Positions 44,172 through 44,595 of a DNA stretch of 64,000 bases are shown here, one piece after another. The stretch covers positions 196,478,001 through 196,542,000 of the forward strand of contig CM059426.1 of the NCBI GenBank assembly GCA_030390025.1, in the 5' to 3' direction. This stretch comes from Squalus acanthias (Eukaryota). The position numbers were made by a program, and so were the translations under genes. The notes beneath the pieces are model-generated. The model was not told the DNA's origin. It searched no databases and saw only the letters and a program-made list of their open reading frames with translations. The stretch's first letter is position 1. Every line of letters begins with the position of its first letter.

Positions 44172-44595
44172 TCAAGCTAAATGATACATGCTATATCCGA
44201 CGTGAGCAGCATATAGTCCAACTGGAGATACTGGTAAAGTGGGTCTGTGAAATGGTGAGAGGCTCCATAAAGAGAGGTTGCAGGGACTGGAGTACCGATG
44301 GGAAAACTAATCCCAAACGCTGGTGGCAGCATAGGTTTAGCTGCCATTTTCAGTTTCTCCAGTTCGGCTTCTTGCAGTCGTTTGGCTTTCGCCCTGCGAT
44401 TCTGAAACCAGATTTTCACTTGAGTCTCTGTTAGGTTGAGGGAGCTGGAGAACTCCGCTCTCTCCGCGATGGACAGGTACTGTTTTTGGCGGAATTTGCG
44501 CTCCAGGGCCAGTAACTGCGAGGTGGTGAAAGGAGTCCTGGGTTTGCGGTTGGTTTTGTGTTTTCGGAGAGTGCAGGTAGGAGGACTCATTCGCC
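44172..44595 (-). CDS. MSX1: Msh homeobox 1, coding exon 2 (homeodomain and C-terminal tail; apparent 1-bp frameshift near 44254)
   Basis: Acceptor ttttag|GG after a 313-bp intron, then [92 protein letters not shown]. The conserved tail [26 protein letters not shown] is in a shifted frame ending TGA 44174-44172; the as-given frame stops at 44177. Restored protein is 284 aa. Confidence 0.93.

What the first reader, a model, noticed from the sequence alone, without database searches (positions are those of the whole stretch)
44172..44260. MSX1 has an apparent 1-bp frameshift that replaces the conserved C-terminal tail
Seen: the coding strand reads TCT CAC CA TTT CAC AGA CCC ACT. Adding one C (plus-strand GG at 44254-44255 becomes GGG) restores [29 protein letters not shown], the canonical MSX1 end. 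As given, the protein ends [26 protein letters not shown], almost the same length. Established: the MSX1 C-terminus binds PIAS1, and human MSX1 mutations cause tooth agenesis. Inference: the intact out-of-frame tail favours an assembly indel or a very recent allele. If real, a last-exon (NMD-escaping) tail swap in a tooth and denticle patterning gene of a shark would be notable.
Basis: partly seen in the sequence, partly recalled or inferred. Interest (0 to 1): 0.7.

Follow-up and report, generated by a model that had tools for sequence, protein, structure and literature searches.

The report
Likely assembly slip in shark MSX1
The assembled copy of the tooth-and-face gene MSX1 in this shark is one DNA letter short near its end, which would scramble a conserved protein tail, but this is most likely an assembly error, because the same assembly has similar one-letter slips in other conserved genes.

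Summary
The frameshift is in the window. MSX1 exon 2 matches sawshark MSX1 at 113 of 114 residues up to S-H-H-F, is one base short, and continues in the other frame with 24 of 24 identical residues and the normal stop. I could not test it on reads: laid no contigs and the second call gave no data. Indirect evidence favours an assembly error. In 86 other conserved genes of this assembly (95 kb) I found 3 frameshifts, one per about 32 kb (95% range 11-154 kb), including Frizzled-8, against roughly one real frameshift per 0.5 Mb in human assemblies. No fetched protein has the shifted tail (0 of 266). Odds: assembly error 0.88, rare allele of this animal 0.09, fixed tail swap 0.02, recoding 0.01. 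If real, it would mirror a published human tooth-agenesis allele. A word search found no earlier MSX1 note in this scan.

The parts
44909..45368 (-). MSX1 exon 1, coding part (in-frame ATG at 45368, second ATG at 45338); open, no break
   Evidence: 88% identical to P0126 (Pristiophorus) over 149 aa, the best of the 144 proteins then held
44596..44908 (-). MSX1 intron, GT...AG, phase 1
   Evidence: the junction restores P-P-P-R-R-M as in orthologues
44172..44595 (-). MSX1 exon 2 (last exon), coding part to the normal stop
44378..44548 (-). Homeodomain, intact
   Evidence: Pfam PF00046, E 6.5e-23, model positions 1-57 of 57
44249..44255 (-). Zone in which one base is missing; most likely plus-strand G at 44249 or the AAA at 44250-44252, less likely the GG at 44254-44255
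   Evidence: both paralogues use TTC for this Phe
44172..44246 (-). Normal C-terminal tail (MH6 region) and stop, intact but out of frame
   Evidence: 24 of 24 residues identical to P0126
44177..44248 (-). Shifted 23-residue tail and stop, as the assembly reads
   Evidence: none of six 5-residue words from it occurs in 266 fetched proteins

Best explanation
The window's MSX1 is one base short in a short run of like bases at 44249-44255, most likely through a consensus error of the assembly, so the animal likely makes a normal MSX1 protein. Shown: the shortfall, the intact out-of-frame tail, and other frameshifts in conserved genes of the same assembly. Inferred: that these are errors, and that the error is a miscounted run length, the usual weakness of long reads (recalled). 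The base most likely lost is the second C of TTC CAC or one T of TTT, since either leaves the H-H-F-H-R-P of other sharks unchanged.
For: (1) No decay after the break: 24 of 24 residues and the stop are kept in the unused frame, and 113 of 114 before it. (2) 32 of 33 cartilaginous-fish proteins, from 22 named species plus unnamed Logan records, end with the normal tail; the exception is a whale-shark gene model (P0129) whose RefSeq counterpart P0005 is normal. (3) 0 of 266 fetched proteins hold a word of the shifted tail. (4) Background in G000: 3 frameshifts in 86 genes, 95.0 kb aligned (Frizzled 2 of 9, connexin 1 of 29, Kir 0 of 17, RAG1 0 of 1, Kv/KCTD 0 of 30). That is one per 32 kb (95% range 11-154 kb), a floor, since the detector found 108 of 160 planted deletions. 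Two more lay among 5 partial GPCR matches. Four of these five can be read as a one-base change in a short run, and the one in L008 has the same shape as MSX1's. (5) Human benchmark: a median of 58 read-supported frameshifts per assembly (PMC10172123, passages), about one per 0.5 Mb by my arithmetic, some 16 times rarer than seen here. (6) Loss of this tail causes dominant tooth agenesis in a human family and missing teeth, with lethal cleft palate in part of the homozygous mice (PMC5137164), so selection should keep such an allele rare (inference).
Against: No read covers the site, so the error is not shown, nor is it shown for the five background breaks. The background rests on 3 events, two of them in one family; the other four families gave 1 in 81 kb, and the 30 best-scoring GPCR loci gave 0 in 37 kb (biased towards intact genes). 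In very accurate human assemblies 80% of frameshifts were supported by short reads. This animal may be more variable than a person: a probable haplotype pair differs at 14 of 3,858 bases. Three near-identical locus pairs of 3.1-3.9 kb showed 68 substitutions and only 2 one-base gaps, so the assembly is not riddled with slips.
Confidence: 0.88

Rival explanations
1. A real, rare loss-of-function allele carried by the sequenced animal, probably on one chromosome, and chosen for the primary assembly. Being in the last exon it would escape nonsense-mediated decay and give a protein with a normal homeodomain and no MH6 tail.
For: An intact out-of-frame tail fits a recent allele equally well. A near-identical human allele exists (c.844delG, p.A282Rfs*21, protein two residues shorter, as here). 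Heterozygous mice with the tail disrupted were normal. Most frameshifts in the best human assemblies are real.
Against: The assembly's frameshift rate in conserved genes is far above the human rate of real ones. The tail is kept in 32 of 33 cartilaginous-fish proteins. G000 holds only one MSX1 copy, so no second haplotype could be compared.
Confidence: 0.09
2. The deletion is fixed or common in this species, which has swapped the PIAS-binding tail of MSX1 for a new 23-residue peptide, perhaps covered by MSX2 and MSX3.
For: MSX2 (L002) and MSX3 (L003) have intact tails in G000. All three Msx genes are expressed in catshark tooth buds, and the early mesenchymal Msx1-Bmp4 link of mice is reported not to operate in shark teeth (PMC4690397, passages). 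The new tail is nearly as long as the old one.
Against: There is no substitution in the unused frame, so a swap would have to be very young. The similar length needs no selection: the human disease allele in the same frame also stops two residues short. No relative has the shifted tail.
Confidence: 0.02
3. The short sequence is real and is repaired during expression, by a -1 ribosomal slip at U-UUC or by polymerase slippage.
For: A Phe tRNA on UUC could re-pair one base back on UUU, which would give H-F-H-R-P (read from the sequence).
Against: The site is not an X-XXY-YYZ heptamer. The 80 bases downstream fold no better than shuffles (z -0.14; 80 of 200 shuffles as good) and the predicted stem starts over 20 bases from the site. 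A run of three T is far too short for polymerase slippage (recalled). No DNA from relatives was obtained to show the arrangement conserved.
Confidence: 0.01

Closest known systems
Chondrichthyan MSX1 (MSX-1a), nearest P0126 of Pristiophorus japonicus
   Same: Two exons; exon 1 88% identical; exon 2 identical at 113 of 114 residues before the break and 24 of 24 after it in the other frame.
   Different: One base is missing in the window, so as assembled the last 25 residues are replaced by 23 unrelated ones.
Human MSX1 c.844delG, p.A282Rfs*21 (PMC5137164; first of four parts of the text and passages read)
   Same: One-base deletion in exon 2 upstream of MH6; tail replaced by an unrelated peptide; protein two residues shorter.
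   Different: The human allele was confirmed by Sanger sequencing and tracks with tooth agenesis in a family. The shark one is seen in one assembly only, with no read support and no phenotype.
Small-indel errors of long-read assemblies (PMC10172123, passages)
   Same: Apparent frameshifts in coding genes; the paper reports most errors as small indels and more than a dozen probable false frameshift or nonsense changes per assembly.
   Different: There the errors cluster in runs longer than 5 bases and in repeats, at one per 1.7 Mb; here the runs are 1-4 bases long and the rate is about one per 32 kb. The sequencing method of G000 is not known to me.

Membership tests
MSX1 (vertebrate Msx1 clade) | Msx-type homeodomain | tested here: met
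   PF00046 full length; best hits are MSX-1a of sharks and rays at 97-98% over the in-frame part
MSX1 (vertebrate Msx1 clade) | Distinct from MSX2 and MSX3 in the same genome | tested here: met
   G000 has two other Msx exon-2 loci (C3, C23) at 73% and 82% DNA identity over part of the query; their names MSX2 and MSX3 are my reading, no tree was built
MSX1 (vertebrate Msx1 clade) | C-terminal MH6 (PIAS-binding) region in frame | tested here: not met
   Present and intact but out of frame in the assembly; domain described in PMC2655272 (passages)
Real frameshift allele | Short allele present in accurate reads | tested here: inconclusive
   0 contigs laid from 4 of 4 runs; no further read data obtained
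Fixed, functional tail swap | Shifted frame shared with relatives, old frame decaying | tested here: not met
   0 of 266 proteins with a shifted-tail word; old frame 24 of 24 intact. The closest relatives seen as sequencing runs (organisms B-D) were not read at this site.
Assembly indel error | Same kind of break in other conserved genes of the assembly, above biological expectation | tested here: met
   3 in 86 genes, 95 kb, plus 2 among 5 partial GPCR matches; human benchmark
Assembly indel error | Reads of the same animal disagree with the assembly | tested here: inconclusive
   laid nothing
Programmed -1 ribosomal frameshift | X-XXY-YYZ heptamer with a structure 5-9 bases downstream | tested here: not met
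   No heptamer (sequence); fold z -0.14

The most novel reading that the evidence does not exclude
A wild shark species has fixed, or carries at high frequency, a last-exon MSX1 frameshift that removes the whole PIAS-binding tail: a natural copy of a human tooth-agenesis allele in an animal that makes teeth and denticles for life.
Probability: 0.02. Interest if true: 0.7.

Novelty: not a real feature. Interest (0 to 1): 0.1.

Why it matters
As most likely read, it matters as a warning: this assembly may hold hundreds to a few thousand false frameshifts (about 950 per 30 Mb of coding sequence, range 195-2,770), so single one-base breaks in G000 should not be taken as gene loss without reads. 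A rare heterozygous allele would be a curiosity. A fixed swap would show that a jawed vertebrate can do without a tail kept from sharks to mammals, and would test whether MSX1-PIAS1 binding is needed to build teeth outside mammals.

Tried and rejected
Reads at the site: one search listed 22 runs; five DNA runs of organism A hold 0.83-0.92 of 154 sampled words of 43960-45400. None holds all, but the missing words cannot be placed, so this says nothing about the base. No RNA holder was listed. laid 4 of these runs (X2, X3, X5, X18) on 44075-44410 and got 0 contigs; the tool says such a blank can be false. A second laying over a wider stretch gave no data, so the local rate of differences from reads stays unknown. 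Exact look-up of the shifted exon-2 reading frame and six exon-1 frames: 0 of 7 in the collection; uninformative, since the exon-1 controls are absent too. A degenerate pattern for the shark tail in metagenome contigs: 0 matches. A second MSX1 haplotype in G000: none. A compensating indel or small intron: rejected, since the frame matches P0126 without a gap up to the break. Three of 5 partial GPCR matches (L050-L052) were introns, not frameshifts. Single events in L006 and L007 were dropped as echoes of the broken query frames of L010 and L008. Loci left out of the count: 7 of 16 Frizzled and 10 of 27 Kir loci (short exon pieces, one a second view of L010), 2 of 32 connexin and 18 of 48 Kv/KCTD matches (no locus fetched), and the 30 GPCR loci (ranked by score); L082 and L083 are one gene. 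The original PIAS1-Msx1 paper (PMC1472282) is not held; I saw only its title in a reference list. Supplements were not read.

Full report
What is there. The window holds MSX1 on the minus strand: exon 1 from 45368 (second ATG 45338) to 44909, a 313-base GT-AG intron, and exon 2 from 44595. The homeodomain is complete. The best protein matches are MSX-1a of sharks and rays, and exon 1 is closest to that of the sawshark Pristiophorus japonicus, P0126, at 88%, which points to a squalomorph shark (inference). G000 has 3.71 Gb in 3,882 contigs and one copy of this exon; two paralogues on C3 and C23, read as MSX2 and MSX3, end normally.

Exon 2 matches P0126 at 113 of 114 residues up to S-H-H-F. It is then one base short: as assembled the protein ends with 23 unrelated residues and a stop at 44177-44179, while the normal last 24 residues and stop (44172-44174) lie in the other frame, 24 of 24 identical to P0126. 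There is no compensating indel.

It added a C to give S-H-P-F. Among 33 cartilaginous-fish proteins fetched (22 named species plus unnamed Logan skate-type records), 30 have H-H before F-H-R-P, 2 have S-P and 1 has H-P. The window already reads CAC CAT TTC, that is H-H-F. Loss of the second C of TTC CAC (plus-strand G at 44249) or of one T (AAA at 44250-44252) explains the shift with no amino-acid change; both paralogues use TTC for this Phe, which mildly favours the first.

Direct test failed. One search found five DNA runs of one organism holding 0.83-0.92 of the sampled words, from two samples. Laying four runs on 44075-44410 gave no contigs, which the tool says can be false, and a second laying gave no data. 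Look-ups in the protein collection and in metagenomes were blank and uninformative. So the question rests on indirect evidence.

Indirect test: how often is this assembly broken in conserved genes? I fetched members of five gene families with long exons and looked for adjacent paralogue matches in different frames; RAG1 was judged by its open frame of 1,033 codons. The detector finds the MSX1 break itself and 108 of 160 planted deletions. It found 3 frameshifts in 86 genes, 95.0 kb: Frizzled-8 (L010; name), a Frizzled of the 4/9/10 group (L008; FZD9 by recall) and a GJD2-like connexin (L082; name recalled). That is one per 32 kb, 95% range 11-154 kb, or a 2.7% chance for a gene of MSX1's length. 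Two more turned up among 5 partial GPCR matches (L053, L054). Four of the five can be read as one base gained or lost in a short run; the connexin break lies in a variable loop and cannot be placed. Against this: two of the three events are in one family, the 30 best GPCR loci had none in 37 kb, and none of these breaks was checked on reads.

Benchmark. In human pangenome assemblies a median of 72 frameshifts was found per assembly, 58 (80%) supported by short reads, with unsupported changes at one per 1.7 Mb (PMC10172123, passages). That puts real frameshifts near one per 0.5 Mb (my arithmetic). The rate in G000 is about 16 times higher, and 3 times higher at the low end of its range. A probable haplotype pair suggests about 0.4% variation in this animal, which would narrow the gap but not close it, and real frameshifts should avoid genes such as MSX1 and FZD8 (inference). 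The same paper is a caution: in a very accurate assembly most frameshifts are real.

What the allele would do if real. The tail is the MH6 region, described as the PIAS-binding domain (PMC2655272, passages). A human one-base deletion in the same part of exon 2 replaces the tail, shortens the protein by two residues and goes with dominant tooth agenesis; mice with the tail disrupted are normal as heterozygotes and lack teeth as homozygotes, and those with cleft palate die at birth (PMC5137164, first part and passages). Msx1 is expressed in catshark tooth and scale buds together with Msx2 and Msx3 (PMC4690397, passages). The new stop is in the last exon, five bases before the normal one, so decay of the mRNA is not expected (established rule, not tested). 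The near-equal length of the new tail needs no selection, as the human allele shows.

Other readings. A fixed, working tail swap should be shared with relatives and let the old frame decay; neither is seen (0 of 266 proteins, 24 of 24 residues; only the best 120 hits of each were listed). Recoding lacks a slippery heptamer and a downstream structure.

Verdict. A correctly seen one-base shortfall in an otherwise ordinary shark MSX1, most likely an assembly error (0.88), possibly a rare allele (0.09), hardly a fixed swap (0.02) or recoding (0.01). A search of this scan's notes met the word MSX1 in no finding. Paper searches were made; none was aimed at showing that a shark MSX1 frameshift is absent from print, and I make no such claim.

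Noticed in passing
L010 about 1514 (G000:C4); L008 about 2843 (C25); L082 loop region (C28); L053 about 1904-1925 (C12); L054 about 1503 (C4): Frameshifts in Frizzled-8, a Frizzled of the 4/9/10 group, a GJD2-like connexin, a serotonin-receptor-like GPCR and a chemokine-receptor-like GPCR (last three names recalled); probably further assembly slips.
   Followed up: partly
L089 and L090 (G000:C10, about 35 kb apart, opposite strands): Two inward-rectifier potassium-channel genes are 99.8% identical over 1,220 bases of coding sequence, with no long flank match at 96% or more: a possible case of gene conversion between inverted copies.
   Followed up: no
L076-L079 (G000:C16, about 52.00-52.02 Mb): Two pairs of connexin genes about 99% identical over 3 kb: a recent tandem duplication or unmerged haplotypes. 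One pair has a short 229-codon frame.
   Followed up: no
L025 (C16) and L026 (C3496): The same GPCR locus on a chromosome and on a small contig, 14 substitutions and one 7-base gap in 3,858 bases: the assembly seems to keep some haplotype duplicates.
   Followed up: partly
window 45338-45368, minus strand: An in-frame ATG ten codons before the first Met of the short models; the ten added residues are conserved in shark and ray models.
   Followed up: no
window 4499-5371, plus strand: A 290-codon frame matching DDE_Tnp_4 (Harbinger-type transposase; E 2e-36).
   Followed up: no
window 420-968 (minus) and 11563-12180 (plus): Frames that look like the 3' end of CR1/L2-type LINE proteins (recalled; no Pfam match).
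   Followed up: no
window about 49442-49602 and 55467-55766: Two short interspersed repeats with many copies in G000, at about 93% and 80% identity.
   Followed up: no
P0129: A whale-shark gene model with a foreign C-terminus, while the RefSeq model of the same species (P0005) is normal: tail swaps in this gene also arise from models alone.
   Followed up: no
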